A DNA stretch of 64,000 nucleotides, taken from assembly GCA_023213395.1 (NCBI GenBank), contig CM041465.1:192579741-192643740 (forward strand). Reading direction: 5' to 3'. This stretch comes from Cycas panzhihuaensis. Its lineage: Eukaryota; Plantae; Cycadophyta. Made by a program: the position numbers and the translations under genes. Of the stretch, positions 8,424-41,601 are shown piece by piece (position 1 is the stretch's first letter; each line of letters opens with the position of its first letter). A model generated the notes under the pieces. The model searched no databases. It was given only the letters and a program-made list of their open reading frames with translations, and had not been told where the DNA came from.

Positions 8424-9496
<1,073 letters not shown>

Positions 9497-16400: not shown

Positions 16401-17960
16401 TTACGAACAAAAGCAGATATATGTTTGAGAATACTAAATTAGAATATCTTGGATACATCATCAGTCAAGAAAGCATTAAGAAAGACCCCAAAATGATCCA
16501 AGCTATAATAAATTAGCCCATATGTAAGAATGTGATTGGAGTATAGAGTGTTTTAGGAGTAACTGGATTTCTCTAAAAAATTATAAAAGGATACACCAAT
16601 ATCACATCCTATTTAATATACCTCATAAAAAGGAATGCTTTTCTATGGAATTGTACAATAGAAGACATTTTTCAACAGTTAAAAATAGCAATGGTCATAG
16701 CTTTGGTTCTAGTAACTCTAGATTTTTATCAGCCTTTCACATTAGAATATTATGCATTAGGAATAGGAATAGGAATAGGAATAGGAATAGTCCTCCTATG
16801 GAAGGATTGACCACTTGCCTACAAGAGCCATAAACTTAATACCACAGAATAAATTTAATCTATGTATGATAAATAAATACTTATAATCATGCATACCTTA
16901 CACTAATAGCATTAGTATCTATTAGAGAATAGTTTTATAGTCAAAAGAGACCATGATAGCCTCAAATATTTCCTTAACTAGAAGACATTATCTGATAAGT
17001 AACAAAAATATGTGAGTAAACTCCAGATATTTGATTTTAGGATTTTGTATAAAGAGGGGTAAGAGAATGTCATTATTGATGCTCTGTCACAAGTATCAAA
17101 AGACAACATTAAAAGTGTATCCTTGAAAGTGGTTTCAATAGCAACATCCATCTAGATGCAAGAATTTCTTCAAGAATATCAAAATGACCACTCCATTCCA
17201 AAAATATAGAGGGAAACATAAGAATAGGGATCTATAAAGGATATAATACAAAGAAATATGATTCTATAGAAAGGGAAAATATCAATCCCAGTGACTTTAA
17301 ATATTAAGGATAAAATTCTTTAGGAAGCCTAATCAACCCCAATCGTTGGATACATAGGGATCGATAAAATATACCATAAGATACATGGATCTTTCTTCTG
17401 GAAAGGGATTAAAGGAGACATCTCAAATTTATGTTAGAATGCAACTCCTATTAGAGGAATAAAAGCTAGAGTATAAAAGTATTAGGACGACTCCAACCAT
17501 TGCACATCCTATAACAAAAATAGGAAGAGATCTTGATGGATTTCATCATAGAACCCCCAAAATTAGAACATAAAGATGTTATTTTTGTAGTAGTTGATAG
17601 GCTAATAAAATATGTATACTTTAAAGAAATATAATTAATAAAAAAATCTAGTTAGAGAGTAGAACTCTTTATAAAGGAAATACATTATTTACACCATTTT
17701 CCTAAGGTCATAGTAAGTGATTGTGATCTAAAGTTCACTAGTCACTTCTAGTAGGGCTTATTATGGCTACTAGGGACCAAATTATCCATGATCATGGTTT
17801 ACTATCCTTAGATTAATAGTTAAATAAAGGTTGTAAATAAATATTTAGAAGGATATCTATAAAAGTTTACTTCTAATAAATAACAACATTAGCACAAATG
17901 GCTCTATCTTATAGAATGGTGGTATAATATCACATATAACTCATCAATAAAAATAATACC
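13471..17960 (+). mobile_element. Degenerate chromovirus-like Ty3/gypsy element (gag-PR-RT-RH-INT), 3'-truncated
   Basis: ORF 15941-16366 is RT (KKDGSY..INYRGLNK, FLKIDL, FIFLNDILIYS). RNase H at ~16700-17090; integrase motifs LQPLHI, MDFI, VVVDRL, EWWYN at 17480-17930. Boundaries approximate. Confidence 0.85.
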
Positions 17961-19311: not shown

Positions 19312-20587
19312 TGGCATGCTTCAGTTAGGCCTGGGCTATGTATCCCTTAATGACGTTATGTTTCCTTTATTTTAGGCTAGATCAAGAGATAAAGAAGCCC
19401 ATGGAAACCTAAAAACCACCTTTTCCAACTCCCAAGAAGGAGCCTCTACCTGCTTGTATTGTTTAGTTTAGATATGCGAGTGATAACAAGAGTCTAGGAT
19501 GTAAGGAGAAGTACTAGGATGTACTAGTCTACATGAGCAAGCGAAGGAGTTCTAAATCAAGAATTATGCTGCCAATATTTTCTGTATCCTTCCTAGGGAC
19601 TCCTTTCCTTATATTGTTTCACCCTTTTGGGTTTACTATAATAAAGAAAAGGGTTAAGCAATAGAAAGTTGATGTTTTCTTTTTTTTAAACGCAAAAGAA
19701 AAAATAATGAAACAATAAGATTTAACTACCTTTTTAAAACTAATGTAAGAAAGTGAAATATTCATATCATTTCTTTTTCTTTTCCTTTTCTAGATCAAAG
19801 AACACCAAAAATGAACTTCTCTTTTCTTTTCTCAAAGATGGGTATCAAAATTATAAAGAAATCTCTTAATTTTTCAAGAATTTACTCTCTAAACCATACC
19901 ATCAAACTCACCACTTTCAAATAAAAGTGCTCTCAAGGGTTTCTGAGGGTTATAGTCATGAATGAAGTAGGTTTACATTGAATTTGGGTGGTAATATGCA
20001 AAATTAGCATGTTAATTAAAAAAATTACATGCATGACTATAAAAAACATGATCAATCATGTTTTATTAACAACAAAAATGCAACTTTCTTAATAAAATCT
20101 GATCAATCATATTTTTGGTAAAAATAAAAATGCGATAAATCACGAGATAAAATTGATTATTAAAGAAATAAAAAATAAATTTTTATTGAAAAAATTGAAG
20201 TATAAATGACTTAGTCAATGTAAAAAGTAGCCCAAAAGGGATGAAAACTTAAGCACAGGCCCGAAAATCATAAAAAAGTGATGATTTAAAGATAAAATAA
20301 AGAGAAAATAATGAAATAAGAGAATGCTTTAAAGAAAAAAGTGAGTGAAAAATAATCATAAAACTGAGATCACATTGCTATAGTTTTCATTCATTAGCAT
20401 ATAAAAACATAATAATATAATCATCATCATCTAACATAAACTATCCACCAAAATCAATACCAGATTTCATCAAAACATGACCTAATACAAAATAGAACAA
20501 GTTTCAAATAATCAAGTTAAATGTAATCAAGTAAGAAACTTATTAAGAAATATAAAGATCAATTGAGGGCTAAGATTTGGTGAAACA
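19312..20587 (-). repeat. 3' LTR of the Tat element (lacks ~0.98 kb present in the 5' LTR)
   Basis: Colinear with 39350-39853 plus 40843-41601; ends TGAAACA. Confidence 0.88.
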
Positions 20588-20954
20588 TTTACCCCCTTGG
20601 CACTTGAAGCTCCTATTTCAAAAGAGGAGTAGAATAGTGAAAGGTAATAATGATCACAATGAAGGCTTTTCTCAGAAAGGTAAATATTTGGATGAAGTAT
20701 GTGAATGATGGAAAATTAGTCTATAAAATATATTAGAATCAAACTAAAGAAACCTTGATATCACTAAAATGATAAGCTAAAGGGCACTACTAAAATGCCA
20801 ATCAAACAGATAGGGCTTATACCCACTCGATTGAAAGCAACACTAAATTCCCATAAACTTCATAGAGATTAAAAACCTAGATGGTTATATTTTATCTCTT
20901 ATTGACTATGTTTTAGAGGAAAGATCCTTTTGTTGGAGTATATATGATAAATTA

Positions 20955-21135: not shown

Positions 21136-21859
21136 TGTTTGAAGGCAAAAATAAGGATTAAAATGAGCATCAAAATGAGTAAGAGATAACATATTCAAGC
21201 CTTCAAAATATTCATCAAAAGACAAATAAATTGATGCCTACAATAATCCTAATCAATGGAAGATGCATAATTTTCTATTTTCAAGAGAATTTATCTAGGA
21301 ATGATTATTAAGAGAGGACAATATTAACCTGGATAAATAAAATGGATAAAAGAAAAAAATCAATCTAAAAAACAAAGAAAAGGTCCCTCATTTTTTATAA
21401 GAAAAATTAATCTATTTCATTTCATTTTCACATGAGGGAATTAGAAAAATAATGATTTGAAGGGCCTTCACTATTTGCTTTGGAGCCACTTTGATGAGAG
21501 ACTAGCTCCATAAGATGAGGATAGACATGATGCAGCCAGGAGCTAGATGTCTAATAAGTTTCTATTATATATATATTTTTTAATATTGAGTTTTTAGATG
21601 AAAAACACGATAATAGGGAGTGAAAACCGTGATTACAAGGTTAAAAATGTGATGAAAGATTTAAAAACAAGATTTTATAGTTTAGTACAAAAATTAGAAG
21701 ATAGCATTTTTGATAAGTAAATCATATTTTTTACTGTGTTATCACGTTTTTTACTATATTATTACATTTATTACTTTAAAAGAGAAAATAAAAAAATAAA
21801 AATTCTTTAGAATACTAAAATTAGAGTCTAACATGATTATTTTTGTTCTAATGTAGCCT

Positions 21860-23640
21860 TTAGAGTAGGTAGATATGAGGAAAAATAAAGGATTGGCAAT
21901 CAGGGAGTTGATTAGTCAACTAATTGAGGAGGATTGGGCCCAATTAAGGGTATGTGGGCTATCTTGGATGAGTGGATTAAATTAGTGATGGAGTATGAGA
22001 TTATCTATGATTTTATTAGTCATTAGATCCCATGGAAAAACATATTTAGTGTACGTACCATAGGAGAAATACATATTACTCTTAGGGATATTGGGAGGAT
22101 CTTAGGGATTAGTTGGCATGAGGAGAGGATCATGCTGGATAGAGTAATTGGCAATGAGTCATAGGAGGCCTATAGTCAGTATTTAACTATCTTTGCTAAT
22201 TAGTTTAGTTCTCATAGGATATCCATTGAGACAATGAGGACAATAGAGGGGATTCCTATTATACGAAAGATTATTGCCCTTATCATTATTTTTAAGATTG
22301 TTATGACCCAAAACTTCATGAGGTCCTAGCACAGTGGGTGGGAGTGATTAGGAGATACGAGCAGAATATTAGGATGAACTAGGGGTCGTACATAGCAGAT
22401 AGTATATGTCATTAATTATCTAGGATCAAGAGGCAAGGTAGAGTGGTTTTTTCCTACGGTTCTATTTTGATGTGTTGGTTGTATGATCACATGCCATTGA
22501 TGAGGCCAGGAGAAGCACTACGAAAGCTAACCATTATGGATTTAGAAATGAATAGGTGGCATATGAGGGCCCAAATCCATAATAGAACAATTATAGTAGT
22601 AAGGAGTATACATAGTCCTCTACTGATCCATATGACCAAGAGGCAACTCGTAGAAGATTTATATAAGAGGCTACTAATATAGAGTGATGATGAAGTTGAT
22701 ATAATTAAGAGGGAAATAATAGGAGAGGCTCCTATTACTAATGGAAGGAGAGGGGGAGAGAGAGGGAGAGGAGATAGAGGACGACATATTATTGATCAAG
22801 GCAAGAGAGGAGAGGGGTGAACTATCGACCATCAAAGGTGGGAGAGGAGGTAAGGATGTGCTCTAAGTGATGGGTAGAATACAAAGTAGGGATAAAGGAG
22901 GATCTATATAGAGCATAGGGTTGGTATCAATAGATGAACATGGGAGAGGAAGTAATGGGAGCAAAGAAGAAGAGGGGGGGCCTCCTTAAGAGGCTTCCCA
23001 AGAGCCTTAGGGAGAGGTAGTTTCATAGTCAAGAGAGGAGATGGTCGTAGAGCCAACGAGAGGAGGATAATTAGTAAGTATGATAGTTAATTTATGTTTT
23101 GAATATATTTGATTACTTCTTTTGGATTATGTACCTTTTGTATAGAATGTTGATTATAATTAATGTGTTTTTCATGGACAGGCGAGGAGAGCCTAACTCT
23201 TTTTACGGTCTAGAGGATGCTTGACCTAATTTTCCCTTATATATCCACATCAGAGGAACCTTCAACAAGGAATACTATTGACTATACACTATTAGGGCAT
23301 TAGATTGAGTATTTTATTCCTGCATTATAGGCTTAAGATATGATCTAGGAAATGTAGATGGAGTTAAGACTTTAGGAGTTAGAGCTCAAGGTGGTAGAGG
23401 ACGAGTGGCATTATCTATGAAGGATGGCATTGGTATAGGTTAGGGGATAAGTTACTCCATCTGAGAGCACTATAGTTTAGTAAGAGAGACATCTTCCACC
23501 ATGTAGAAAGTTGACATACGGGCAGATTCTAGATAGAGAGGGGAGGGTGGATCCAGGAGTACAAGGGAGATTTCACTAGAGCTCACAAAGATGAACATAT
23601 TTTATATATAGAGTGAAGATAGGAGGGAGATAGTAGGTAT
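21860..23640 (+). pseudogene. Antisense Plant Mobile Domain (PMD, PF10536-like) gene remnant inside the Tat element: PMD, RG-rich linker, putative intron, coiled-coil exon
   Basis: The frame from 21961 reads ..YDFISH*IPWKNIFSVRTIGEIHITLRDIGRILGIS (PMD W.P....F....GE..ITL.D...ILG). The frame from 22323 reads MN*GSYIA..FSYGSILMCWLYDHMPLMRPG (PMD NWG and LL..W..E..P..RP). Stops fall at Trp/Gln codons. Confidence 0.8.
23074..23181 (+). other. Putative spliceosomal intron in the antisense PMD gene
   Basis: GTAAGT donor, 108-nt AT/T-rich body and tttttcatggacAG acceptor, set between purine-rich coding-like flanks. Confidence 0.55.
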
Positions 23641-23703
23641 TTTATGAGCCTCAAATATTGTATCATGAGTCACATAGTGATAGATGTATTACATTTTTAT
23701 CAT

Positions 23704-23836
<133 letters not shown>

Positions 23837-24677: not shown

Positions 24678-25082
24678 TTAGCTAAAATAATCATTTAAGA
24701 TAAAAGAGACTAGAGCATTAGCTTTAGTATTTAAGATCTAGGGAAAAAATTAGATAGTAACTAAAGGGAATAAAGACATCAATAACGAAGCTTGATAGTG
24801 ATGGGAAAGAAGCTATGAAGAATAGGTTTAATATAACCCAACTAACTAGAAAACAACAATATAAGAGTCAGAATAAATGATGATAGGTCCATCATAAGAT
24901 TAAGAAATGTCAAATAATATTCTTATAATAACAAAATATTCAACTTCATTGTTGGTTGCTCTAGGTAAAAATAAACTAGCAGATAAGAGGGGGTTTCTTG
25001 ATTGGTCATAAATCACCCAAGTAATAACAGATGATCCCAGGTTATCTCAACTACCTTTGTCAGTGAAAATACTCAATGCCAT
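24678..25082 (-). pseudogene. Stand-alone archaeal-type RNase H (aRH) ORF remnant downstream of integrase
   Basis: Minus translation MALSIFTDKGS*DNLGSSVITWVIYDQSRNPLLSASLFLPRATNNEVEYF..IIIYSDSYIVVF*LVGY...PRS/NTKANAL matches RNase HI motifs DG.SRGNPG, TNN.AEY, SDS.LVV.Q and N..ADAL. Confidence 0.85.
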
Positions 25083-26134
25083 AGGAAGATAGGACTAATA
25101 TTTGAAGACAGTATACTCGATAAAGGAGAATGCAGGAATCAATAAGTAAGGAGATGGTAGTGAATGAGAATAGATTGGCTTTTGCTACAACAAGAAAGAG
25201 GAAAAATCATAATTAGGATAATAATAGTCAACTAAAATAAAAGGTGTCAAATAGGATTTGATCATAATTGAGGCTATAATGGACCTAAGCAGCTAGGCTC
25301 AAACATCCTATATGACTCATCCAAATGAACCTAACCTATTACATATATAGGTAAGGACAAAGCTGCCACATGACTTACCCCAAATTATAAGAGGATGATA
25401 ATAATATCTTTTATAATTTTTGATTTCTAACTTTTTTTTTTTTTGCTTTTTTTTTTTTTTTTTTAGTTTCACTTTTACTTCTTTCTTTTTTATGATATTT
25501 ACAAGAAAATGTTTATAACCATCCAATTATGAGGTACCTTTCCTCAATGCAGTAAGGATTTATCAATTTTAATGAAACCAAAATGGAACAATAGAAACCA
25601 AACTCCTTAAAGATTGAACCATGGGAAAAAGGGGAGGTCTAAATCATGGTGTCTCCAAACATAATGGGAAGGTGGTAGAATGAGTATTCATCTCAAAAGT
25701 GTAAATACAAAAAATCAAGGATAATAAAAAGAAAAGAAAAAAGAGGTGATTAATGACTAAGAAGGAATCCCCAAAATGAAGGACTAGTATATAGGATATG
25801 ACCTAAGCAGATAATAAGATAACTAGAGCTAACGAACAAATCTCTTCTTAAGGATGAGAATAGATGACAAAACTAGAGGCCCAAATTCTCTCTTAAGTAT
25901 GGAGCTCAAAGAGAAAAGATAGGTAACTTTGAAGAAGGAGTACCTATAATCAATACATATGCTAGAAGGGATAGTAGACTTATATGATCATGAGGAGGCT
26001 ACTTTATGAAAGTAGAGATAGATTAAGAGAAAATAAAGAATAATTAAGAAAGAGAATTACCCATAGTTTTAGCTCATTAGACAATAAGAGAATTTGGAGC
26101 CATAGTTTATCATCATTATAGAGAGAGGATGCTA

Positions 26135-29100
26135 TTAGGCATAAAACTTTCTCAAGTATTGAGAATTAACATGCTTCTTAAATTCTAAGCCTTCCATCAT
26201 AGAGATTTGATAAGCACCATTGCTTAAATCTTTAATAGCTAAGTAGAGTCCAACCCACTTAGGAGAGAACTTGCATTGCTTATCATGGGGATATTCCAAC
26301 TTTAAAACCTTATCACCAACACAGAATTTCCTAGGCCTAAGTTGCTTTGAACCCTAGCTTTAAAGGCCATATTATTTTGTAATGCTTGTAAATGATTCTT
26401 ATCTGCTTTTTCAAGTCCTAAGAGATGTGCTTCTCTTTGGAACTCTTCACCAATAATTTTTTTTAGTGAGACATATAATAAAGGAATCTTAACTTATAAT
26501 AGAAGAATGGCCTTGATAACATAAACTAGAGAAAAAGGTGTCATACCTATAACATTTCTAATTAAAGTCCTGTACACCGACAACATCAGAAATAGTTGAA
26601 TATACTAATCTCTATGAGAAGTCACCGCGGTCTTAACTAAAATCTTAGCTAAGGTTTTGTTAAATGCCTCAACTTAACTATTTGCTTAGGGGTGATAAGG
26701 GGTAGATAGTCTATGAGTGATATGAAACTTATCACACAACTTACTAACATGGGGATTACAGAATGAAGACCCATTATTGGTAATGATGATATTAGGTATC
26801 CCAAATCTACAAATGATATATTAGAAAATGAATGTAGTTATAATCTTTCTTGTAATAGAAACAAATGGAATAGCTTCACTTCATTTGGTAAAATATTTAG
26901 TTGTAGTAATAATAAATTTGTGGCCATTAGATGAAGCTAGAATTATTTAACTAATAAGAGCAAAGGCCCATTGGCACAAGGGCTAAGAAGAGATAATAAA
27001 TTTCAACTCTTGAAGGTAGGTTTATGAATTAACATAGTGTGAGACTGGCATTTTTCATATTTTTGAACATAGACATGGGCATCTTTGAATAAGGTAGGCC
27101 AATAATAACCCATATAAAGAATACATTAGGCTATAGATTGGTCACCAAAATGACCACCATATGTTGCATCATAGCACTCTATTAAGGTGACAAGAGCCTC
27201 ATTAGGAGAGAGACACCTCATCAGAATCCCATCGAAGGAACATTTATAAGAATTCCATTGAGTAAAAGATATTGCCTAGTGGTGGCTCATATTCACCTTC
27301 TTTTCTTTGATATTGAAGAAGAAGGGAAAGATTGATCATAAACATAAGATTTGATCTCCCCATACCAGGGGTCATCAGAAGGGATGGTCTAGACATGGAA
27401 AATATATTCATCCGTAAGAGTGTGGTCAATATGTTGATTAGTAGATTGAGTAGAGGGGTGTCAGCCATGATCTTTGCAATGACCATACCTTTCTTGGATT
27501 TCTTATTAACAGTTTGAAAATCAAACTTTTATAATAATAAAGACCATTTACCTAATCATCTAGTAAGGTTGGTTTTAGTCAGTAGATATCTAATGGGATC
27601 TGATTGGATGATAAGATTGACCTTATTTCCAAGAAGGTAATAATGCAACTTCCTAGCGGTAAAGACTAAAGAAGGACACTCTTTTTAGGAGGAGGATAGT
27701 GAAGTTCAGCTACCACTAAATTTCTACTAATGAACTAAATCACTTGTTCTTTAGCAAAATTATCTTCTTATGCTAACATACCTACTAATGATTCTTCCAT
27801 AGAAGAGCTATATTGAATAAAAAGCTTATTGAACCTTGGTGGAGCAAGTGTTAGTGCTGAGATTAATGCTTACTTTAATCTATCAAAGGACTCTTAAACT
27901 TGAAGACTCCATCATAATTCAACATCTTTTTTTAAAATATTAGTGAGATGCTTAGCATTTAAGGTGAAATTAGTAATGAAGCATCTCATAAAACCAAGCC
28001 TTCCTAAGAAAGATTTGATCTTTTTTTGGGCTTTTGGAGGAGGTATATCAATAATTAACTTTACTTTATTAAGATATACTCTTATTCCATTGTGGAAGAC
28101 AATATTACCTAACATCTTTCTTAAAGTTACCAACAAAATATTTAGATGGATTCAAATACAAATGATACTTTCTACATCTTTCAAATATTATTCTCAAATC
28201 ATGCACATGATCTTGTAGTTTATGAGAAATGGTAAGCATGTCATATAAATATACAGTAATAATATTACTAATTAGATCGTGAAAAATATAGATCATTGTT
28301 CTTTAGTAAGTAGCCCCAACATTCTTTAACCCAAAAGGCATGACTTTATAAATGAAGGTGCCCTAGGGGGTAATGAAAGTAGTTTTATGATGATCCCATT
28401 GTGTGATAGAAATTTGATTGTATCCGACAAAATTGTCTGTAAGGGATATAACTTTGAAACCAACTCTTTGATCCGAAATTTGATTAAGAAAGGGAAGAGA
28501 AAAGTTATCTTTGGGACAAGCATTGTTAATATCCCAAAAGTCAATATAGATTCAAATCAAGCCATTCATTTTAACAACTAAGACTATTAGAAACCCATTG
28601 AGAGTAATTGACACTCTTAATGAATCCAACTTTTAACAGTTTCTTAACTTCCTATTTGATGGCAGTATAAAGACATGGATGAATACATCTTTATTTTTGG
28701 CTTTTAGGTTTAACACTAAGAGTAATAGTGATATTATATTTGACAACATGGGGATCAATACCATGCATATCATTGTAATCTTAAGCAAAAACCAAATAAA
28801 ACTCATGAAATATATCTTTAAATAGAGAGATCTCTTGAGGAAATTAATTAGTCCCAAGCTTAATAATTTCAGGATTATCCCCTAATTCTAAGTTGATGTT
28901 AATTCTTTATTCCATGAGCATAGCATTACCCTCTTTGAAATGAGATGGAGTAGGTTCTATAACAGAAACTATCTCTTGGAATTGGGAATGTTTGATTAGT
29001 GGTAAATCAAGTTGTATCATCTTTGAAAAACCTAACTTATGATGATAAGAGGGAAGATTAGGAGTTGATCCTGCTAGATGCTTAAGGATTGTCTCACCAT

Positions 29101-31703
29101 TTTCAAAATGATCTAAATGAAAAAGTTTAAAGAGGAGAAGATTTTTAGATAGATCGATAGACAATATAAATGACTTAAAAGGTGGGGGATCATTAAACAA
29201 AGAGTTTGGATAAGTAGGTATAGACTCAATGATTGAAGGGACTTGGGAAAAAAGGATGGGTCTATCAATAAACTCCCAAGTTGAAGTGAAAGTTTGCTCA
29301 AACTCATGATGGTAAAGGTGATGGTTTTGATTAGACAAAGAGATAAAGATGAGAAATGATGGGGGATTATCAATAGGGTAAGAAGAAGGAAGGGAGATGA
29401 CAGGGCCCAAATTCACTTCTCAAACTCCATTAGATATATTTTGATTACTTTGAGATATAACATGTAAAGGAACAACTTCATCATCCAATTCTAAATTAGG
29501 GTGCCTATGGAACAATATTTTCTTCTCATGTCTATTTAACCATGTAGTAAAAAGAGAAGACCAAGAGAAAGGAGGCATGGTAGGAGCAAGCACATCATGT
29601 AAAGATGAAACTATATAATCCATTGAGGAAACAATCATAATATAAGGAACCAAAGTATTGATCATTGAAGGAAAACATAAGACCTATGAGATTCTGAGTA
29701 GAGAGTGGAAGAATTGAGTCAATTATTTCATTCATAATTATCGCTTCATAGGATATACTAGGAGGCGATGTTGTTTCTTCATAAGAAGAGGAAGGGAAAC
29801 CAAAGATTGATAAGTAGGACTCAAAGGATAAGGAGTAGATGAAGAACCTAGTTTAAGAGGGACAATTTCAACCAAATCAACACCCTTTACTTCTCCCTAA
29901 GGAGGAGGAATTTCAATGGTGAAATATTACCCTAAACTTAGAGATTGAAAGAAATATTTTGAGGAATTAGATAACTCACTAGGTTTAGAGAAAGCCTCAA
30001 TAAGTAGGACTAGTTATTTAATAGGTTTTGACCTACATTTAATAGTCTTTAATTCACCTTCATGGATGAATCAAAATTCACCAAAAAAAGAAGAATAGAT
30101 AATAACCATTTGGGTGATCCATTATCTACCCAAAAGGATATTATATTCTAGATCAAGATCGATAATGGTATATTCAGTATAAACTATCTTTTCTTTAAGA
30201 GTCAAAGGAAGAGTGACTTAGCCAAGTGGAGCCCTTTTGATTCTTATCATATCCTTGGAAAATCTACTCACAAGGGTGAAAGACCAAAATCTCTAGATCC
30301 ACAACAAGGTAAATAGGGATTACATTGATAGATGACCCCTCATCAATATTAACATATTTAATATTAATATCATCTTTAATAATTTCAATGTAGAATAGGG
30401 AAATACCATTTGAAGAATGAATAGTGTGAGTAGACAATGTTACTAAAGTGAAAGAAAGCATGGAAGTAGATGAACTAACTATGGTAAGAACTCTCAATAC
30501 ATCGAATAAGAGTTGACATTGCTTAGGGCAATACTTCAATAAATCTATAATTGAGATACAAGTGGGAATAGTCTTCAACTTATTGACCGATGAAAATGAT
30601 CCATCCTTTCAACTAAAGGGAATGGATCTAAACCTAATGGGATAAGGGGGAATAAGAGGTAAAGAGTTAAGATTTTTAGATGTTAAATCATTAAGTTATT
30701 TAGATGAACCTATTCTCTTCATAATCTCCACTATGTTAATAGTTCTCTTAGTCTTACCACCTTTAGGAGGTGAGTGAGCTTGACTATTAGCACACTTTAT
30801 TGAAGGGTTAGATGAAGTAGTTGTCTTCTTAGATGAATTGAAACTAGAAGGTTCACCTTTATTATTTTAAATGTGTTTAGCCCTACCTTTATCATATTTA
30901 TTTTGTTATCCTTATGTTGATGTAGAGGGTCTTTGTGAATCATTTGATCTTAAGAAGTTTTAGAAGCCTGACTTGTTTGATTATTTATATTTTAAGTTAT
31001 GGCTTATACTATATGGCATTAGCTTCTATCGTGGGTGTTAGTTTGGTGGTAAGGACATTACTTCATCTTCCTGAAAGGAGGAGAAGGTGTATGCTGAACT
31101 TATTTCTTTCTCCCTTTAGTAAGATGAATAACTTTTGTTTCTTGAGGAGACCAATTTTCTATAAGACCATTAATATGCAACTTAGTATTACTTGCATGCT
31201 CTAATGACCTAATAGAAGAAGTCAAATAATCATAGGTTAGATTGGGATGAGAAGTATTAGGTATTTGAATAATTTCTTTAGAAGGGATAGATTTCCCAAA
31301 ATTGTTAATGCCCACTTATATTTCAAAAGATTCTGAGGCTAAGCTTCAATCAATAACTTCCTCATAGGTTTAAGGACCAAGATTAAGTACTTCAAGATGC
31401 ACATGAGGCCTTAAAGCATTGGTGAATAGATCAAAAACGAGACTAGGATCAAGTCAAGGATGACATGTATGAATTTGTTCTTAAAATCTCCTTACAAAGT
31501 CCTTAAAAGTTTTTATCATGATTTTGATTAATGGCCAAATTTGATTTAATGCTAGATTTAAAAGGTCTAGCTATATCAAAGTAATTGATGAAGGAGCCAA
31601 TCAATTATTGGAATGAAAGAATGGAAGTATAAGGAAGGTGATAAAACCACTTCAATGCATCACCTTGAAGTTATTTATAGAATAAGTACATCATGATATA
31701 GTC
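26135..31703 (-). pseudogene. Tat element gag C-part, protease, RT, RNase H and integrase (disrupted)
   Basis: gag LQGDALKWFYHLP (31630-31670); protease IDEGSSINVI (~30320-30350); RT TVYLYDML (ORF 28105-28296); RH end SKKGMVIAKIMAD; INT GGHFG..GYYWPTLFKDA; C-terminus NSQYLRKFYA* ending at 26135. Confidence 0.88.
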
Positions 31704-31708
31704 ATATG

Positions 31709-32318
31709 TGTTGAGAATACAAGGTCCTAACTCTTAAACTACCACCAAGATCTAAACTATTCTTGTAACTAGTTACAGAAATTGAAACTAAAGATTACAT
31801 GCAAGTTCTTAAACTAGAGATAAAACAGTAAACTGAACAAGAAAGCCAAGCACACAAATACACCTGATATAACGTGGTAAAACCCTAGCAGTGTGCTAGG
31901 GAAATGTCCACATAGGAAATGTATTAATCTTTATTGTCACAGAATAGAGAAAATATACATGATCCTATAATAGAGTGCTTACAACAATAACAACCAACTG
32001 CCCAACTCCTCATAGTACATTGAACAACCTCAACATAACGAAATATGCCCTAAATTTGGCTATATGAGAGAGTCATACAAGGCACAAATTTGGACCATAG
32101 AATCTAGGGTATTTTTATCAAACGACCTTGGTTCTCTTTATAATTTATTGAATCTAGGGTATTTTTATCGAATGACCCTAGTTCTTTTCACCATACTTCC
32201 CTAGCCAAGGGGGGCTTCTGCCCACCTTGGAACCCTCCAAGGAAGGTTTGGGAGGGAAACCACATTACCAGCATGCCAAAATTTAAGCCTCCAACCATTG
32301 TTGTCACATTATCCAACA
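31709..32318 (-). repeat. 3' LTR of the Tork-like copia
   Basis: TG...CA termini; followed by the PPT complement atctctaccttg. Confidence 0.93.
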
Positions 32319-34973
32319 ATCTCTACCTTGACAACAATTTACCTGGTACCTTTCTTGGACCCTTCATCATCTTTTCTACAAGCCAAGAGAAGTCAAACAC
32401 CATTTGAAATTCTCTAATGGTACTGGTTTTGTGAACATATCATCATAATTCTATTTTGTATCAACCTTCTCAAGTGCCACTCTACCTGGTTCTATAACTT
32501 GTCTAACAAAATGGTACTTAAGAGTAATATGCTTTGTTCTACTATGATAAGCTAGATTCATGGCTAAGTAAATGGCACTTTGACTATCACAAAATACCTT
32601 TACCTTTTCTTGTTTCCTTCCAAGCTCAACCAATAGACCCTGTAACCATATTGCTTCTTTACAAGCATGTGCTGCAGCAACAGATTCAACTTTTGTAGTT
32701 GATAATATAATTATGCTCTGTAATTTTGACATCCAACTAACTGGACCATTTGTAAGAGTGAATACATAACCTGAAGTAGACATTCTCTTATCTAAATCTC
32801 CTGTAAAATATAAATCAATATATCTACAAACCTAATTATCTGTACCTCCAAAGATGATGCAATAGTCACTTGTGCCTCTCAAATACCGAAATACCCATTT
32901 CACTGCTACCCAATGTTCCTTTCTTAGATTTGCCATAAACTTGTTAACTACACCAATTGCATGTGAAATATTAGGTCTTGTATATACCATGGCATACATC
33001 AAACTTTGTACTGTATTGGCATAAGGCACACAAGACATATAATCCTTTTCTTCTTTATTACTAGGACTCATACTCAAAGAAAGATTGAAATGGGAAGCCA
33101 ATGGGATACTCACTGGTTTCACATTTACCATACCAAACCTAGTTAGCACCTTCTCTACATATTTCTGCTATGATAATCATACCTTATCATTTTTCCTATC
33201 TTTGTGTATCTCCATACCTAAGATTTATTTTATAGCTCCTAGATCCTTCATATCAAAAGTCTTAGCCAATTGAGCCTTTAACTTATTGATTTCTTCCGTG
33301 CTTTTGCTTGCAACTAACATGTCATCAACATACAATACCAAGATAATAAATAAGCCATTATCCATAAATTTAATGTAAATACAATGATCATACTCATTTC
33401 TTTTGAAATTTTAGCTCTCCATGAAGGTATCAAACTTCTTGTACCACTACCTGGGTGATTGTTTCAGGCCATACAATGATTTCCTAAGCTTGCAAACAAG
33501 TTTGTTCCTGCCATCTTATACAAACCCTTCTAGCTAATCCATATAGATATCCTCATCTAAATCTTTATGTAGAAAATCTGTTTTTACATCTAACTGCTTT
33601 GACTCTAAATCAAGCCAAGCTACCAATGCTAACAGCACTCGAATTGAAACAAGTTTGATAACTGGTAAAAAGATCTCATGAAAGTCAATACTTACTTTCT
33701 GTACAAAACGTTTAGCTACCAGTCTTGCCTTGTATTTGTCAACCTTTCCATCAACATTTATTTTCTTTTTGAAAACCTACATATAACCAACAATCCTCCT
33801 GCCATGTGGAAGTTCTACCAAGTTCTATGAATTATTTTTCTTTAAAGCATCTATCTCTTCCTGCATAGCCCTCTTCCACTTCTTACCATGGATATCATCT
33901 ACTGCTTCCTGATAACATGTAGGTTCACCATCATTAGAAACCAAAGTAATAGAAATAGAAGGGTTATACCTGTCAGGTGCATGACTAACTCACGTAGATC
34001 TTCTAACTGTTGGTAGAGGAGTATCCACACACTCCTTTGAATCTACTGCAGATTCATCTTTAGAAAGATCTTCCTGCTCTTCTGATTCTACAGATGGCTA
34101 TATTTCAAATTTAACTTGTTGATGTTCAACTTGCTTCTTCTGTTTCACTTCAACTTCTCCATTGTCTGATTTTATAAGGGGAGATTCATCAAATATAACA
34201 TCTCTGTTAATGGTGATTTTGTGGGTAGTAGGATCCTATAACCTATATCCCTTCACACCATCCTCATCACCATAACCAACAAAGATATATATCTTGGATT
34301 TTGGGTCTAACTTTGAACATTTACTTTTGTCAGTCCAGGCATAAGCATCACAACCAAAAACTCTCAAATTTAAATAATCACATGGATGTCTAGTCTATAC
34401 CTCTTTAGGAATCTTGTAGTCTATTGCAAGTGATGGTGACCTATTTACGAGATAGCAAGTTGTTTGAACAGCTTCTGCCTATAAGCCCTACTCCACTCCT
34501 GCATTACTTAGCATGCTCTTTGCTCTTTGGAAGAGTGTCCTATTCATGCACTCAATAATACCATTTTGTTGTGGAGTATAGCTAGTCATCTTGTACCTTT
34601 TGATCCCAGCTTCTCTACAATAGTTATCAAACTCCAAGGAGTTGAACTCATCTCCATTATCAATTCTTAAACATTTGATTGTCTTACCAGTGATGTTCTT
34701 AACTAGAGCCTTGAACTACTTAAACACACTAAAAACTTCAGATTTCTTTTTTAAAAAATAGACCCATATCTTTCTAGAGTAATCATTTATAAATATGATA
34801 AAGTACAATGATCATCCATAAGATATTTTAGGGGCTAGTCCCCATACATCTGAATGTATATAATCTATAATAGCTTTACTAGTGTGACTCCTTACTTTAA
34901 ACCTGAGTCTACACTACTTTCCAAAAATATAATGTTTGTAAAAAGCCAAATCTGAAAGTTGTAAGTTATGAAG

Positions 34974-35295
34974 TGTAATGAACCGTTACACCAAAACCTC
35001 GAGGTGTTAGTGAAGAGGGCCCCTCACCAAGTAGACCATTACCTCCCCCCAGTTCAAATGGGCTAGCCTCGCCTAGCCCCACTTTCACCGACATTCATGC
35101 ACCCCACAGGCCCTGGGTACAATGACGTTTTGCGCATCGGCGGTGTTTGGCGCGTCACCCCACCGCCCCCATAAGTGATGTTGCCCCCACAGGATTTGAA
35201 CCTGGGTCTTGGCTCTGATACCACTTGAATGAACCATTACACCAAAACCTCGAGGTGTTAGTGAAGAGGGCCCCTCACCAAGTAGACCATTATCA
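34974..35295 (-). mobile_element. TRIM (terminal-repeat retrotransposon in miniature)
   Basis: 65-bp direct repeats 34977-35041 and 35228-35292 with one mismatch. PBS tggtatcagagcc (complement 35211-35223) and PPT ggggggagg (complement 35042-35050). About 185 bp of non-coding interior. Confidence 0.88.
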
Positions 35296-35334
35296 ATGCT
35301 TTGAGGGTAAAGCATATTTTGAAGGGGAGGGACT

Positions 35335-35916
35335 TGTAACATTCCAAAATCTAGTCAAAACTATGCCATGTAACCATTCAAATTGAAGGCCTCTAAACAA
35401 GGATTCTAATGTTTTAGATGAAAGTCAATTCTGACATCTCAATCAAAAGTTATGGCCATTTAAAGTTAGCCTGACAGTTTTTGGAGAAGTTCTGGCTGAC
35501 CTCTATTTGAGCAGTTTTAAGAAGAATATTACCGAGTCTGGCTGACTTCTATTACTATCATTTAGCTGCCTATTTAAGGAGGATTTACGACCTTATTTCG
35601 TCATCATCGGAGGTTCTTTGGTCACGCATTTTCGGTTCTAGGGCTGCAATTAGCTTGCCCATTTGGGGCTGCAGTTTGGAGGGTTCCTCACCTCGAAGAG
35701 GGAAGCTCACGTCTTCAGGAAAGATAGGTACTTTATTGAAATTTTGCTCTATTTTGGTATTATTTAATAATAAAGACTATTATTTACTTATGTAGATTCT
35801 GTAATTCTTGTTCATTGTTCATTTTTCTTGTTGAATAGCATCTAGTTATTGTTTTTGTGGATTATTACTTGTATTTTTGAGAAAAATTGCTATAAAAGTA
35901 GAATTAGATCACTATA
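35335..35916 (+). repeat. LTR of a chromovirus-like gypsy element, preceded by a PPT
   Basis: PPT gaaggggagggact (35321-35334), then TGTAAC...ACTATA (CA>TA); contains TATTTAAG and AATAAA-like signals. Confidence 0.75.
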
Positions 35917-37298
35917 TGAAGTAACTTACAGTTCATCAGCACCTTAAGTCCTCTCTCACTCATGTGCCCAAGTCTCTGATGCCATAACTGAGTTGGATCT
36001 TCTACAGTCTTTGGTTTTATAGCTATGTGGCTGACATCTATACTTCCCACTAATATGTACAGGTTTCCTTTCTTTAAGGCTTTCATAATAACCGAGGCAC
36101 CCTTTGACACCTTTAGGACTCCTTCATGACTTGTATGCTTAAAACCACTCGAATCTAGTTCACCCAAAGAAATCAGATTCCTTTTCAGATCAGGTATATG
36201 TCTAACCTCAGTTAATGTTCTCACTACCCTATCAAACATCTTAATTTTGATGCTACCAATGCCCATTGTCTTATAAGAAACTTCATTTCCCATAAGCACA
36301 TCACCACCATCAAAAGGTTAGTATGATGAGAACCAACTCTTATGTGGACACATGTGGTGTGAAGCACCTGAATCTAATAACTAGTCATAGTGATAATGAG
36401 AAACATTATAACCAACCAAGACATCATCATCCATACCCTGATTTGACTTCACTTGATTTGCCTCCTTAGTAGGATCTTCCTTTTTCTGGAACTCCTTCCT
36501 TTTGTAGCAATCCTTCTTGAGGTGACCAATCTTATTACAGTGCCAACACTTGAGCTTACTCTTCTTGCCTTTTAACTTTGACCTTGATGTATCCTTGGAA
36601 TATTGTCCTTTATGAATTGTTCTATCCCTTATTGTCATAGCTTCTGGTGTGGAGGTTTCAAAACTATACTTCCTCTGCACTTCTTCCATTAGCAAAGCAC
36701 TCACAACAGAATCATATTCTAATTCATCTGTAGTGCTAAAACTAATTGAGGTGATAATATTATCCAAGATTCTGGTAATGAGCATAACAAGGTAATAGCC
36801 TTGTCCTCATCCTTAATTTTAACATCGATATTAGCCAACTGACAAATAAGAGTATTGAAAACATTTAAATGGTTATCAATTTTTGTACCTTCTTTCATCT
36901 GTAATGAGTATAACTGCCTCTTCAAGTAGATTCAATTTGTCATTGATTTAGTCATATACAGGCCTTCTAACCGAGTCCATAATCCTGCTACTATCTACTC
37001 CGCTGTAATGTTAAATAGAACTTCATCTGCCAAGCACGATCGTATTGTGCTAAGAGCCTTTTGGTCTAGATCATCCCATTCATCATTATCTGTCCCTATG
37101 GGTTTCCTCATTTTGCCTACAAGAGCTTTGTACAAACCTTGTTGTACAAGAACATCATACGCTTTCAGTTTCTACAACTCGAAGTTATTCTTGCCATTAA
37201 ATTTCTCCAGCTCGAACTTTACACTTGCTAGTTTTGCCATTTGGTGTAGAGAAAGCTGACACCAAAACCTTCACAAATGTGTTACAAAAATAAAAGTA

Positions 37299-37310
37299 GC
37301 TCTGATACCA
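37299..37310 (-). promoter_or_regulatory. Primer-binding site (tRNA-iMet) of the Tork-like copia
   Basis: gctctgatacca, i.e. TGGTATCAGAGC on the minus strand, 2 nt from the LTR. Confidence 0.95.
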
Positions 37311-37312
37311 CT

Positions 37313-37959
37313 AGTTGAGAATATAAGGTCCCAACCCTTAAACCGCCACCAAGATCTAAACTATTCTTGCAACTAGTTATAGAAATTGAAACTAAAGATT
37401 ACATGCAAGTTCTTAAACTAGAGATAAAATAATAAACTGAATAAGAAATCCAAGCACATAAATACACCTGATGTAATGTGGTAAAACCCTAGCAGTGTAC
37501 TAGGGAAACATCTATAGAGGAAAGGTATCGATCTTTATTGTCACATAATGAAGAAAATATACATGATCCTATACCAGAGTGCTCACAACAATAACAACCA
37601 GCCGCCTAAACCCTCATAGTACATTGAACAACCTCAACATAATGAAATATGCCCTAAATTGGGCTATATAAGAGAGTCATACAGGGCACAAATCTGGACC
37701 GTAGAATCTAGGGTATTTTTATCAAATGACCCTGGTTCTCTTTACAATTTAATATAGTTTTCAGTGCTAAATTTTTAGGTCGGGGGCTATCACCCTTGAA
37801 CCCCCTCTTAGTGGGGGGCGTTCCACACCCTCCACACCCCCCTAGCCAAGGGAGGCTCCTGCCCCCCTTGGAACCTCCCAAGGAAGGTTTAGGGGGGAAA
37901 CTACATTGCCAACATGCCAAAATTTAAGCCTCCAACCATTATTGTCACATTACTTAACA
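37313..37959 (-). repeat. 5' LTR of the Tork-like copia
   Basis: Homologous to 31709-32318; the first base is mutated (AGTTGAGA). Confidence 0.93.
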
Positions 37960-37964
37960 ATATG

Positions 37965-39320
37965 GTATAAAGTCAGTACAAGTAAGTGCAAACACTTGTA
38001 TGTGGAAGGCTGGATCTTTGGAAGAGTCACCTAAGAATTTAGCTAACTTAAGTAAGAATGGAGGCATAGGAGATAATAGAACCTCACGTGGGAAAGGAGA
38101 CTTCATATATTTTATGAAAGGTTTCCTTGGCCTCAACATCATAAAATGTTAAGGTAAGGATGATGGATGTGGGGTGGTAGAGGAAATAGGTTGTTATTAT
38201 TAAGGAAAAGAATAAGATGATAGAGAAGATGAATGATTAAACCAAGCTATAGGATTTACCATATAATTGGTTTACAACATAGTGTATTTAGGGAAAATAA
38301 AGTTAAATAAAAGAAAAGGTACTTATTGGGGGACTAGTCTAGGGACATGAGATGATGGAGTAGGATTAATAAATCCCAAAGCTTTAGATTGATTAAGTAA
38401 AGAATGAGAATAAATGAGGTAAGTATAAGGAATAGGTTATGAAGAGGAAACTACATTAGATGCCTTAGGGGAAGAGATGTGAGGTCTAACACCCTAAGAT
38501 ATGGGAAACCTAGGGTGGTAATTGAGTTGAGGTTATAATGAAGTGAGAAGAAGATAATCTATTAGGATATGAATGGATAGGTTGTGGGGTTAAAGAAGAC
38601 AGACCTATTTGTTGAGGGGTCAAAACATAAGAAGGGATAAGATTACCTTGAACAAGCATGGTAGAGGTTCCCTTATATGTAGAAGGTATTGATTGAGGAG
38701 AATGGGTTTGAGCTTGTAACATGGAAAGTGAGGGGAGAGGCTAAGAATAAACTGATTTATGAACTTTAACTTCTCTTGAAGGAGGAGAGAGTGGCCTGGG
38801 TGAAGGAGGATGGGAAGCTAAGGGTGATCAATTAGCATAAGGAGAAATAGAAGACTCAACCTACATGGACTCATACTCCTCACATAATGGATCAAATTGA
38901 CAATGTTGAGGAGAGGATGTTATGGTATGAGTCTTTAGATGGAAAGGATCTTAATATCTAAGCATATGGAGAGAAGTAGGGACCCTGGTAAGAACTTACT
39001 CATAATAAGATGTAAGTGCTTGAGTGGGAAGAGCTTCTTCTTATACAAAAGAAGAATTCATAAAAGAAGCACCACCATGGAATTAAGAGGGCTCATGGTA
39101 CCCTTGTTTCATGGGTACTTCATATAATTAAGTTGAATCTTCAGAAGGATAAATATAAGTGTTGCATATATGATGTTCTAAAGGGTTAACATAAGAAGAT
39201 GAAACTTCATGAGTAAAATATGAGGGTTGAATTTGAAAATTAGGTGAGAGACCTTAAAGTTTTAATGATCATCTTTGAGTGGGAGGTATAATTTCCATTA
39301 CTTTAAATAAAAAAGTAAAT
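37965..39320 (-). pseudogene. Tat element 5' leader and Pro/Ser-rich gag N-terminus
   Basis: ORF 37954-38142 (KLAKFLGDSSKDPAFHIQVF) matches the gag F.G..DP..H motif; upstream is low-complexity S/P-rich coding-like sequence. Confidence 0.75.
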
Positions 39321-39349
39321 GGTAATCCCTAGTATGGTTATGAGAAAGA

Positions 39350-41601
39350 TGGTGTGCTTTAGTTGGGCCTAAGCTATGTATCCCTTAATGACATAATGTT
39401 TCCTTTTTTTTGGGCTAAATCAAGAGATAAAGAAGCCTATGGAAACCTAAGGACCACCTTTACCAACTCCTAAGAAGGAGTCTCTACTTGTTTGTGTCAT
39501 TTGGTTTGGATATATGAGTGATAATGAGAGGTTAGGATATAAGGAGAAGTATTAGGATCCACTAGCCTACACGAGTAAGTAGAGGAGTTCTAAGTCCAAA
39601 ATTACACTGGAAATATTTTTTGTATCCATCCTAGGGACTCTTTTTCTTATATTGTTTCAACTTTTTGGGTTTACTATAATAAAGAAAAGGGTTATGTAAT
39701 GGAAAGTTTAATGTTTTTTTTTTTTAAGAATATAAAAGAAGGAACAATGAAACAATAAGATCTAACTACCTTTTTCAAACTAATATAAGAAAGTAAAACA
39801 TACATATCATTTCCTTTTCTTTTCTTTTTTAAAATCAAAGAACACCAAAATGAAAGAAGATACTCTCTCCTAAAGATGCAATACATACTTCTTTTTAAAT
39901 ATAAAAGCTACTAGCATGAGATGCAAATACTATATTATGCAAATTTGTATGAAACTTAACAAAAGGTAAAATAACATGCAATGATTATGCAAAACTCTTC
40001 ATTTTATTCACATGTTATTTTAAACTTTAAGAATGATTTCAATGGAAATAAGATATTTCAAATATAATTTTAGTTACTAAAAACAACTTATAGTCTATAA
40101 AACTCATATGTAACTAGTTATATATTAACATCATTAAAAAGAAAAGGAGATTCTATCACTCATGGAGCTTCTAAGTACCATGGGATCCTTGAACCTCATA
40201 CAGAGTTTATTTGCTGCAAAGTTTTATTATTCATGCATACATCTTATTTTTTGAAAATGAGAGAAAATAAAGAAGACAAATTCAAGGAACACAACACCTA
40301 AATGTTTTAGAAATCTCTATTTCCATCATGAATTCTTACCTCAGAATAGTTATTCCCTTTAATATAATCAATATTTCTTAGTTTTTTCTTTAAAACAAGT
40401 ATAAAAAGGAGGAAAACTAGAAGAATAAGGTTAACTATAGCCGAAAAAATAGAAAAAGTGAGAGTAGGATCTCTTGGAAAACTTGGACAACTAAGGAGAA
40501 TGGGAAAGGGTAGTTATATTTTATGGTAAAGAGGTAGATCTCTCTTCATAATAGATAACTCCTTTAGTTTCCTATAAAGGGCTAACCTTTCAACTAAGAT
40601 TTCTCAAGGAAAAATAGAGATTAAGAAGTATCAGAAATCAAAAGAAAGAGAGAGGTATATTTGGTAAAAAAAAATCATCAAAGAAGCACTAAATCAAAGG
40701 GAAATAATAGTAGAAAAGACCTTACTAAGCATATGAAGTCTAAAGCATAGAGTTGTAGCAAACCAAGTATCTTAAAAAGTAGTAATAAAATGGATTTGAA
40801 TAGCACATAAGCAACAATCAGAGCTTTAGATCTTTTCTCTTGACTTCTCTTTTCTTTTCTCAAAGATGGGTATCAAAATCATAAAGAAATCTCTCAATTT
40901 CTAAAGAATTTACTCTCAAAACCATACTATCAAACTCAGTAGTCTCTAGGATTTTTGAGGGTTATGGGCATAAATAGAGTAGGTATACATCAAATCTGGG
41001 TGGCAGCATGTAAAACTAGTATGTTAATTAAAAAAATTACATGCATAACAGTAAAAAACATGATCAATTATGTTTTATTAATAATAAAAAATATAACTTT
41101 TTTAATAAAATGCGATCGATCTCATTTTTGGTAAAACCAAAAACACGATAAATTAGAAGATGAAATTGATGATTGAAAAAGTCAAAAATAAAATTATATT
41201 AAAAAAATTTAAGTAGAAATGACTTAATCAATGTAAAAGAATAGCCTAAAAGGGGCGAAAACTTAAGTACATACCCAAAAATCATAAAAAGGTGATGATT
41301 TAAACATAAAATCAAGAGAAAAGAATAAAATAAGAGAATGTTTTAAAGAAAAAGGTGAGTGAAAAATTATCATAAATGTGAGATCTTATTACTATAGTTT
41401 TTACTCATCGCCGTATAAAAACATAATAATATAATCATCATCATCTAATATAAACCATCTACTAAAATCAATACTAGATTTCATCAAAACATGACCTAAT
41501 ACAACATAGAGCAAGCTTCAAATAATCAAGTCAAAGGTAATCAAGTAGGAAACTTGTTAATGACTAGAAAGATCAATTCAGAGCTAAGTTTTGATGAAAC
41601 A
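39350..41601 (-). repeat. 5' LTR of the Tat element (2252 bp)
   Basis: Homologous to 19312-20587; ends TGAAACA; the adjacent minus strand reads CA-tctttct-cataaccatactaggga (degenerate PBS). Confidence 0.88.

What the first reader, a model, noticed from the sequence alone, without database searches (positions are those of the whole stretch)
21860..23640. Retrotransposon-borne antisense PMD gene with an apparent intron: candidate accessory chromatin or anti-silencing module
Seen: two PMD signature blocks on the strand opposite pol, invisible in the ORF track because of C>T stops. They are followed by an Arg/Gly-rich tract (22740-23070), a GTAAGT..CAG AT-rich segment (23074-23181) and a segment that restores to a coiled-coil-like peptide (ALQAQDMIQEMQMELRLQELELKVVEDEW). 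Established: PMDs occur in gypsy and MULE elements, and the host PMD proteins MAIN/MAIL1 act in TE silencing and gene expression. Inference: the antisense orientation lets an intron survive retrotransposition, so this family may carry an independently transcribed, spliced accessory gene alongside a separate aRH gene. This is the best candidate for an undescribed system here, although this copy is dead.
Basis: partly seen in the sequence, partly recalled or inferred. Interest (0 to 1): 0.8.

Follow-up and report, generated by a model that had tools for sequence, protein, structure and literature searches.

The report
Retrotransposon's spliced VANC-like anti-silencing gene
A dead plant retrotransposon carries, on its opposite strand, a broken and likely spliced gene whose intact relatives are predicted to fold like a known transposon anti-silencing protein, and it repeats one short DNA word in its ends and beside that gene, so these elements likely protected themselves from host silencing by binding their own DNA.

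Summary
The region is a decayed antisense PMD gene in a TatIII (gymnosperm Tat lineage III) LTR retrotransposon. That arrangement was described in 2015 (PMC4408406), so the gene itself is not new. Four things I did not find in print. (1) Conifer-type relatives share a phase-1 GT-AG intron after the PMD (12 of 12 loci examined) and a leader intron of about 300 nt. Both coding exons are under purifying selection (dN/dS 0.11-0.32). One natural protein has the spliced junction. (2) Models of two intact relatives match only VANC21, the crystallised anti-silencing protein of an Arabidopsis DNA transposon (Z 13.4 and 13.9; next best 4.3 and 2.9). (3) The window element repeats AAAAYRYGAT in both LTRs and its leader intron (11 of 14 window matches). 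(4) Two other families clearly cluster different words in the same kinds of place. Best reading: a VANC-like, family-specific anti-silencing module. Binding and activity are untested, and host transcription-factor sites are a live rival. The window's intron is likely real but has no RNA support, and its last exon matches no relative. The scan noted analogous motif-laden fungal retrotransposons elsewhere, none with PMD.

The parts
19312..20587 (-). 3' LTR of the TatIII element (TG...CA on the minus strand)
   Evidence: 84% identical to 39350-41601 in two blocks; K2P 0.16-0.17
20043..20136 (.). Cluster of 4 AAAAYRYGAT motifs in the 3' LTR, partly as head-to-head pairs
20588..20600 (-). Polypurine tract next to the 3' LTR
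   Evidence: sequence
21396..21431 (+). Predicted antisense promoter: TATA-like word 479 nt before the ATG, followed by a pyrimidine-rich CATTT tract
   Evidence: TATA-like words lie 434-558 nt upstream in 4 of 8 relatives (inferred; no RNA data)
21554..21856 (+). Predicted leader (5'UTR) intron; the donor site is non-canonical in this copy
   Evidence: donor-like site 321 nt and AG 18 nt before the ATG; 302-319 nt in 6 of 8 relatives
21602..21750 (.). Cluster of 4 AAAAYRYGAT motifs inside the predicted leader intron
21875..22740 (+). Broken PMD coding region (stops and two frame changes)
22740..23073 (+). Purine-rich, Gly/Arg-rich linker; frame ambiguous
23074..23181 (+). Likely phase-1 GT-AG intron, 108 nt
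23182..23579 (+). Predicted last exon, broken; end uncertain; no detectable match to the relatives' last exon
24855..25082 (-). aRH ORF remnant, starting about 1,050 nt after the pol stop
   Evidence: RNase_H E=0.0019; tblastn to the relatives' aRH
26135..30214 (-). pol remnant: PR, RT, RH, INT, with no aRH between RH and INT
31000..39349 (-). gag and 5' region, split by a nested copia-type element at 31710-37961
   Evidence: gag and copia motifs read by eye from the translations printed; nested LTRs 83% identical
39350..41601 (-). 5' LTR, with about 1 kb absent from the 3' LTR and a cluster of 3 motifs at 41055-41149

Best explanation
This is a dead copy of a TatIII retrotransposon whose antisense PMD gene was likely a three-exon accessory gene for a VANC-like protein, predicted to bind a short family-specific DNA word clustered in the element's own LTRs and leader intron and so likely to keep the element transcribed against host silencing. 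Shown: the element's anatomy, the PMD homology, the conserved intron signals and purifying selection in relatives, and the motif clusters. Predicted: the VANC21-like fold. Inferred: transcription from an internal antisense promoter; survival of the introns because the genomic RNA carries them in the unspliceable orientation; binding of the protein to the motif; a positive feedback loop through the motifs in the gene's own leader; and relief of DNA-methylation or Polycomb silencing.
For: Order RT-RH-INT, then a separate aRH, then an antisense PMD, in the window and in relatives. G|GT..AG|A(T/C) introns of 75-138 nt in 12 of 12 loci examined, with lengths in all three phases, although the PMD exons are only 34-85% identical. 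Of 66 homologous proteins that reach the junction, 65 run on with G-K/N/M/T/I/E, as read-through of a G|GT donor would give; one (P0136) continues into the last exon at the predicted junction. dN/dS is 0.12 and 0.17 for the two unsaturated PMD pairs of 28, and 0.11-0.32 for the 9 unsaturated last-exon pairs of 12; the integrase control is 0.16. AlphaFold2 models of L006 (pLDDT 89) and P0136 match VANC21-DNA (9LNK) at Z 13.4 (255 aligned, rmsd 4.0) and Z 13.9 (266 aligned, rmsd 4.9); next best 4.3 and 2.9 of 48,161 chains. Motifs: the top word learned from the window's leader intron alone (774 patterns tried) is enriched in the held-out 3' LTR (p about 6e-7), and 0 of 2000 di- or trinucleotide shuffles reach the counts. 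ATGCGCG occurs 6 times in the L006 leader intron, 14 times in the 5' part of its overlapping contig L005, and nowhere else in either. GGCCGC occurs 9 times in the L025 leader and 5 times further out. The window and L006 words are absent from the other families' introns and LTR regions tested; the L025 word is absent from the other introns and occurs at most once in the other LTR-side regions. VANC21 binds short motifs in introns and terminal non-coding regions of its own transposon (PMC5735166, passages), and Arabidopsis PMD-C proteins act through motifs against Polycomb silencing (10.1101/2024.09.27.615353, passages).
Against: There are no binding, methylation or expression data. A shared fold does not show function; Foldseek alone gave E=0.013-0.014, and sequence search of the PDB did not find VANC21. 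By an exact 6-mer test only 2 of 8 relatives' leader introns were clearly significant, 2 were borderline (p 0.05 and 0.03) and 4 were not; the window's was not either (p 0.2) until deamination was allowed for. The YRCACCC word of the L029 group is enriched in 5 related introns but in only 1 of 4 LTR copies, and the L025 outer cluster loses significance with a degenerate pattern (93 of 300 shuffles). LTRs commonly carry repeated host factor sites (general knowledge). The window's intron lies about 110 codons further from the PMD than in relatives, and its last exon does not match theirs. The only spliced product found is a host-type RINGv fusion on Logan contigs whose RNA origin I infer from their length (1.56-1.81 kb).
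Confidence: 0.55

Rival explanations
1. The gene is a real spliced accessory gene, but the repeated words are sites for host transcription factors that drive both promoters, and the PMD protein does something else nuclear, such as engaging a host phosphatase or chromatin complex or steering integration.
For: The words lie near the two promoters. CGCG- and GCC-containing words resemble CAMTA and AP2/ERF sites (recalled, not tested). MAIN and MAIL1 work in a complex with PP7L, and their direct DNA binding is not demonstrated (10.1101/2024.09.27.615353, passages). Clusters are weak in several families.
Against: The words differ between families whose PMDs are about 40% identical, and related PMDs (L026, L029, L038, L055, L057) share one word, as described for VANC/VANDAL. 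The only clear structural match is a DNA-bound anti-silencer.
Confidence: 0.3
2. The PMD gene is real, but 23074-23181 in this family is an AT-rich stretch rather than an intron, and what follows is not a coding exon.
For: 108 nt is a multiple of three; there are no junction reads; the downstream frame has the most stops and no homolog; the position differs from the relatives'.
Against: Canonical GTAAGT donor and CAG acceptor at sharp composition edges; the same phase, length range and T content as the relatives' intron; only 2 such sites in the window.
Confidence: 0.2
3. The extra ORF is an env-like membrane protein, or matters mainly as antisense RNA, as discussed in earlier papers.
For: Both ideas are raised in PMC4408406 and PMC7264820 (sections read).
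Against: Strong protein-level purifying selection on both exons and a globular VANC-like predicted fold.
Confidence: 0.05

Closest known systems
Tat lineage III (Ustyantsev et al. 2015, PMC4408406) = TatIII (Neumann et al. 2019, PMC6317226)
   Same: Gymnosperm Ty3/gypsy with aRH after INT and an antisense 3' eORF containing PMD.
   Different: The papers treat the eORF as one ORF with PMD alone and place aRH at the C-terminus of Pol. Here aRH is a separate ORF (92-117 nt after the pol stop in three relatives, about 1,050 nt in the window), and the PMD gene has two predicted introns, a conserved last exon and motif clusters.
VANC21 / VANDAL21 anti-silencing system (PMC5735166; PDB 9LNK, 9LNJ)
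   Same: Predicted fold; an accessory gene of a transposon; short family-specific words clustered in introns and terminal non-coding DNA, partly as tandem units.
   Different: Carried by an LTR retrotransposon of gymnosperm type, not a Mutator-like DNA transposon of eudicots; 9-13% sequence identity; no DUF1985 hit among the 58 sequences scanned at E<=0.1; binding and demethylation untested.
Arabidopsis MAIN, MAIL1, MAIL2 (PMD-C; PMC5418596, 10.1101/2024.09.27.615353)
   Same: PMD domain; act through short, in one case palindromic, DNA motifs; structural likeness to VANC is already published (also PMC13547354).
   Different: Host genes. The gymnosperm TatIII PMD is divergent and scores below Pfam's cut-off (best 29 bits of 34.9 for the three locus ORFs).
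Antisense accessory ORFs of Grande, RIRE2 and Retand (PMC7264820)
   Same: Antisense ORF between pol and the 3' LTR; Grande gene23 has its own upstream promoter and a nuclear product.
   Different: Tr28-type or unassigned proteins. The review names no intron in these antisense ORFs and calls for a search for antisense and spliced transcripts.

Membership tests
TatIII | aRH located after INT | tested here: met
TatIII | RT groups with gymnosperm Tat elements | tested here: inconclusive
   Quick tree only: the window RT pairs with P0003 (SH-aLRT 90) beside a 38-row clade holding a PITA-named protein, apart from the 80-row clade with the angiosperm-named rows; the fork is open and no named TatIII reference was in the tree
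TatIII | Antisense 3' eORF with PMD | tested here: met
TatIII | 5-bp TSD | tested here: inconclusive
   Flanks TAAAG and CATAG agree at 3 of 5 positions
TatIII | tRNA-Arg or tRNA-His PBS | tested here: inconclusive
   No recognisable PBS after the 5' LTR in this decayed copy
Ogre / Retand | aRH between RH and INT | tested here: not met
   RH runs into INT without aRH
PMD (PF10536) | Reaches the Pfam gathering score | tested here: inconclusive
   Window fragment 16.5 bits of 34.9; intact relatives 13-29 bits; 45 of 58 alignment members match at E<=0.1, best 2.5e-10
VANC anti-silencing proteins | VANC core fold | tested here: met
   Predicted models of relatives, Z 13.4 and 13.9; the window's own broken protein was not folded
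VANC anti-silencing proteins | Encoded by a Mutator-like VANDAL DNA transposon | tested here: not met
   Carried by an LTR retrotransposon
VANC anti-silencing proteins | Family-specific short motifs clustered in the element's non-coding DNA | tested here: met
   Clear in the window, L005/L006 and the L025 leader; partial in the L029 group; not seen in L064
VANC anti-silencing proteins | Binds the motif and causes loss of methylation | not testable with these tools
   Needs biochemistry and methylomes

The most novel reading that the evidence does not exclude
Gymnosperm TatIII retrotransposons carry a complete sequence-specific anti-silencing system: a spliced VANC-fold protein plus a co-evolving, family-private DNA word in the LTR and in the gene's own leader intron. 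It would be the first such system described in a plant retrotransposon, would be older than the eudicot VANCs, and could be where the PMD/VANC fold acquired this job.
Probability: 0.45. Interest if true: 0.85.

Novelty: new variant of a known kind. Interest (0 to 1): 0.68.

Why it matters
The function of the extra ORFs of Tat retrotransposons is stated as unknown in the papers read (PMC4408406, PMC7264820), and the sequence-specific anti-silencing systems I found in the plant literature are in DNA transposons. If TatIII PMDs bind family-specific words in their own elements, there is a concrete, testable mechanism for how retrotransposons kept multiplying in giant gymnosperm genomes, a new angle on whether PMD went from transposon to host or the reverse, and natural protein-motif pairs to study. 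The introns also mean that ORF-based surveys truncate this gene, which may be why lineage III was described as PMD-only.

Tried and rejected
No whole genome is held for this window, so no genomic copies of its own family could be compared directly. Searches with the degraded window fragments found nothing: word search and phmmer over 1.84 billion representatives. Five scans of viral contigs gave no loci (one search used a wrong frame). No RNA holder was listed among the sequencing runs, which says nothing about expression. In one search none of the 15 joints shown (of 201) skips 23074-23181, and none of the 40 variant rows shown (of 643) falls on the GT or AG; both lists are too partial to use. 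Run X3 had little or no cover over the linker and intron, which is not usable as evidence. GT/AG conservation within the window's own family therefore stays open. The relatives' last exon gave only weak atlas look-alikes (best 0.82), and the two-copy complex prediction gave no answer (score 0.04). Pfam found nothing for the last exon of the window or of two relatives. The repeats at 19312 and 39350 look like a plus-strand primer site, but PPT, TG...CA ends and pol orientation show they are minus-strand LTR ends. No second PMD gene was found in the window. Of 80 loci, 20 hit a PMD-gene exon; several are overlapping assemblies of one copy, most others are too short, and L018, L056, L063 and L069 have long 3' flanks without a hit. 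The automatic donor call for L045 was 9 nt too early; I read the site by eye. Literature searches that found no report of introns, motif clusters or a VANC comparison for Tat PMD eORFs. Not read: Steinbauerova 2011 (not looked up), Tanaka 2026 on the VANC21 structure (not held), all figures, supplement file 1 of PMC4408406, and bioRxiv supplements; any of these may already note part of this.

Full report
Setting. The finding lies inside a decayed LTR retrotransposon on the minus strand. Its LTRs are 39350-41601 (5') and 19312-20587 (3'), 84% identical, K2P 0.16-0.17 with 133 transitions to 49 transversions, with a polypurine tract beside the 3' LTR. Pfam and tblastn place PR, RT, RH and INT at 30214-26135. 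An RNase H remnant follows about 1 kb later at 25082-24855. A copia-type element is nested in gag. The region 21860-23640 is therefore antisense, between aRH and the 3' LTR. The host was not identified and no genome is held. The segment is high-copy in four coded organisms.

Checking the observation. The PMD is real but heavily decayed. Pfam sees only the second block (E=0.005). A profile from 120 relatives finds both blocks in order, and a read-through with X at each break scores 40 bits against at most 7.9 in 500 shuffles; hhalign gives E=5e-7 for the second block and 0.017 for the first. Two frame changes as well as stops hide the ORF. The 108-nt GTAAGT..CAG segment is as described: 23% GC and 49% T between 43% GC flanks. 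A filter set to the relatives' intron ranges, chosen after seeing these values, passes 2 donor sites in the window and 3 of 1000 shuffles. The Arg/Gly tract has no certain frame. The coiled-coil-like peptide is weak, lies in the frame with most stops and matches no relative.

What is already known. Ustyantsev et al. 2015 (PMC4408406; sections 5 and 6 read, passages, four of five supplement files searched) describe gymnosperm Tat lineage III with aRH after integrase and an antisense 3' eORF containing PMD, with a coiled coil only in lineages IV-VI. Neumann et al. 2019 (PMC6317226; passages and one supplement row) call this TatIII: 39 elements, 18% with a 3' reverse ORF of at least 250 codons. 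So the gene's existence, position and orientation are published. The window RT falls beside a clade containing a PITA-named protein, apart from the angiosperm-named rows, in a quick tree with an open fork.

Relatives show a spliced gene. One metagenome scan with a member of that clade returned 80 loci; 20 hit a PMD-gene exon, several being overlapping assemblies and most of the rest too short. I call them conifer-type from the clade only. In 12 of 12 loci examined that span it, a T-rich phase-1 GT-AG intron of 75-138 nt follows the PMD at the same position, with lengths in all three phases, so that only splicing keeps the last exon in frame (one donor read by eye). Among 120 homologous proteins, 66 reach the junction: 65 continue as read-through of the donor would predict, and one, P0136, continues into the last exon exactly at the predicted join. 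P0136 is a RINGv fusion with 14 near-identical members on 1.56-1.81 kb Logan contigs; that these are transcripts is inferred. Both exons are under purifying selection: dN/dS 0.12 and 0.17 (the 2 of 28 PMD pairs not saturated), 0.11-0.32 (9 of 12 last-exon pairs), integrase control 0.16. Upstream, all 8 relatives with enough sequence have a donor 302-435 nt and an acceptor 5-20 nt before the ATG (degenerate in two), and 4 have a TATA-like word 434-558 nt upstream. The window has a TATA-like word at -479, a non-canonical donor-like site at -321 and an AG at -18. The predicted gene thus has three exons and an internal promoter. Its introns persist because the genomic RNA carries them in reverse (inference). 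The window's coding intron has the same phase, size and composition but sits after, not before, the low-complexity linker, so it is likely real but not shown to be the same intron.

Fold. AlphaFold2 models of an element-borne PMD (L006; pLDDT 89) and of P0136 each have one clear match among 48,161 chains, VANC21 bound to DNA: Z 13.4, 255 aligned, rmsd 4.0, next 4.3; Z 13.9, 266 aligned, rmsd 4.9, next 2.9. Foldseek ranks it first but only at E about 0.013, and sequence search does not find it. Likeness of host PMD-C to VANC is published (10.1101/2024.09.27.615353 and PMC13547354, passages), and an anti-silencing role has been speculated for DNA-transposon PMD-C (PMC5418596, passages; same preprint). 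I found no such comparison for retrotransposon PMDs.

Motifs. VANC21 binds a short word concentrated in introns and terminal non-coding DNA of its own transposon, and related VANCs use other words (PMC5735166, passages). In the window, AAAAYRYGAT, first spotted by eye, occurs 14 times against 2.7 expected; 11 copies lie in the two LTRs and the predicted leader intron. Learned afresh from the intron alone (774 patterns), the same word ranks first and is enriched in the held-out 3' LTR. None of 2000 composition-matched shuffles reaches the counts, while the spacer and the 5' region have none. The two LTRs are one observation, so this is two independent clusters. In L005/L006, ATGCGCG occurs 6 times in the leader intron and 14 times in two 5' clusters, as inverted pairs in tandem units, and not in coding DNA; in L025 GGCCGC occurs 9 times in the leader and 5 times further out. 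The window and L006 words are absent from the other families' regions tested, and the L025 word is absent from the other introns. Against this: with exact 6-mers only 2 of 8 relatives' introns are clearly significant; the word of the L029 group is enriched in five related introns but in only 1 of 4 LTR copies; L064 shows none; and the L025 outer cluster is not significant with a degenerate pattern. Host factor sites could give similar clusters.

Mechanism and rivals. Most likely (0.55) the antisense gene made a VANC-like protein that bound the family's word in the LTR and in its own leader, locally relieving silencing and sustaining both transcription units. Binding and relief of silencing are inferred by analogy. 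The main rival (0.3) keeps the spliced gene but gives the words to host factors. A separate doubt (0.2) concerns the window's own intron and last exon. This copy is dead in any case.

Novelty. The element is a TatIII-type member by domain order, and the antisense PMD is known. The three-exon structure, the selection on the last exon, the VANC21 match and the family-specific motif clusters were not found in ten literature searches; PMC7264820 (two of three parts read, through the conclusion) still lists the function as unknown and asks for spliced antisense transcripts to be sought. Other papers seen as passages only: PMC9289625, PMC11963269, PMC13477047, PMC12844716, PMC12859917, 10.64898/2026.08.24.746577. 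Steinbauerova 2011, the VANC21 structure paper, figures and closed supplements were not seen and may overlap. Earlier scan notes describe motif-laden fungal gypsy elements, one with a spliced antisense gene and one warning that motifs can occur without the gene; they are unchecked and concern other proteins. Verdict: new variant of a known kind, interest 0.68.

Noticed in passing
proteins P0136, P0241-P0253 (Logan contigs of 1.56-1.81 kb): An intact RINGv-PMD fusion: a RING-variant domain (E=5e-14) joined in frame to a TatIII-type PMD and its last exon, with the intron removed. The 14 near-identical members (99-100%) look like alleles of one expressed chimeric host gene, a possible domestication of the accessory gene.
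   Followed up: partly
window 31710-37961: Copia-type element nested in gag; LTR K2P 0.12, younger than the host element's 0.16-0.17. Similar LTR copies lie at 4563-5177 (inverted) and 7706-8334, and a 65-nt direct repeat at 34977 and 35228 lies inside it.
   Followed up: partly
window 39855-40842: About 1 kb present in the 5' LTR but not in the 3' LTR.
   Followed up: no
window 25083-26134: The gap between the pol stop and aRH is about 1,050 nt here against 92-117 nt in three relatives; how aRH is expressed as a separate ORF is unexplained.
   Followed up: partly
L057:14280-14600: A relative whose PMD gene is internally deleted, joining the N-terminus to the end of the last exon, but which keeps the leader intron and two motif copies.
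   Followed up: no
L005:953-1085 and 1893-2021: Tandem 33-43 nt units, each an inverted pair of ATGCGCG-containing words, resembling sites for a dimer.
   Followed up: partly
window 15947-17038, 53056-54180, 56459-57945: Other gypsy-type pol remnants.
   Followed up: no
window 8330-9530 and 23700-23830: Long TA/CA microsatellite runs; the second lies just after the predicted end of the PMD gene.
   Followed up: no
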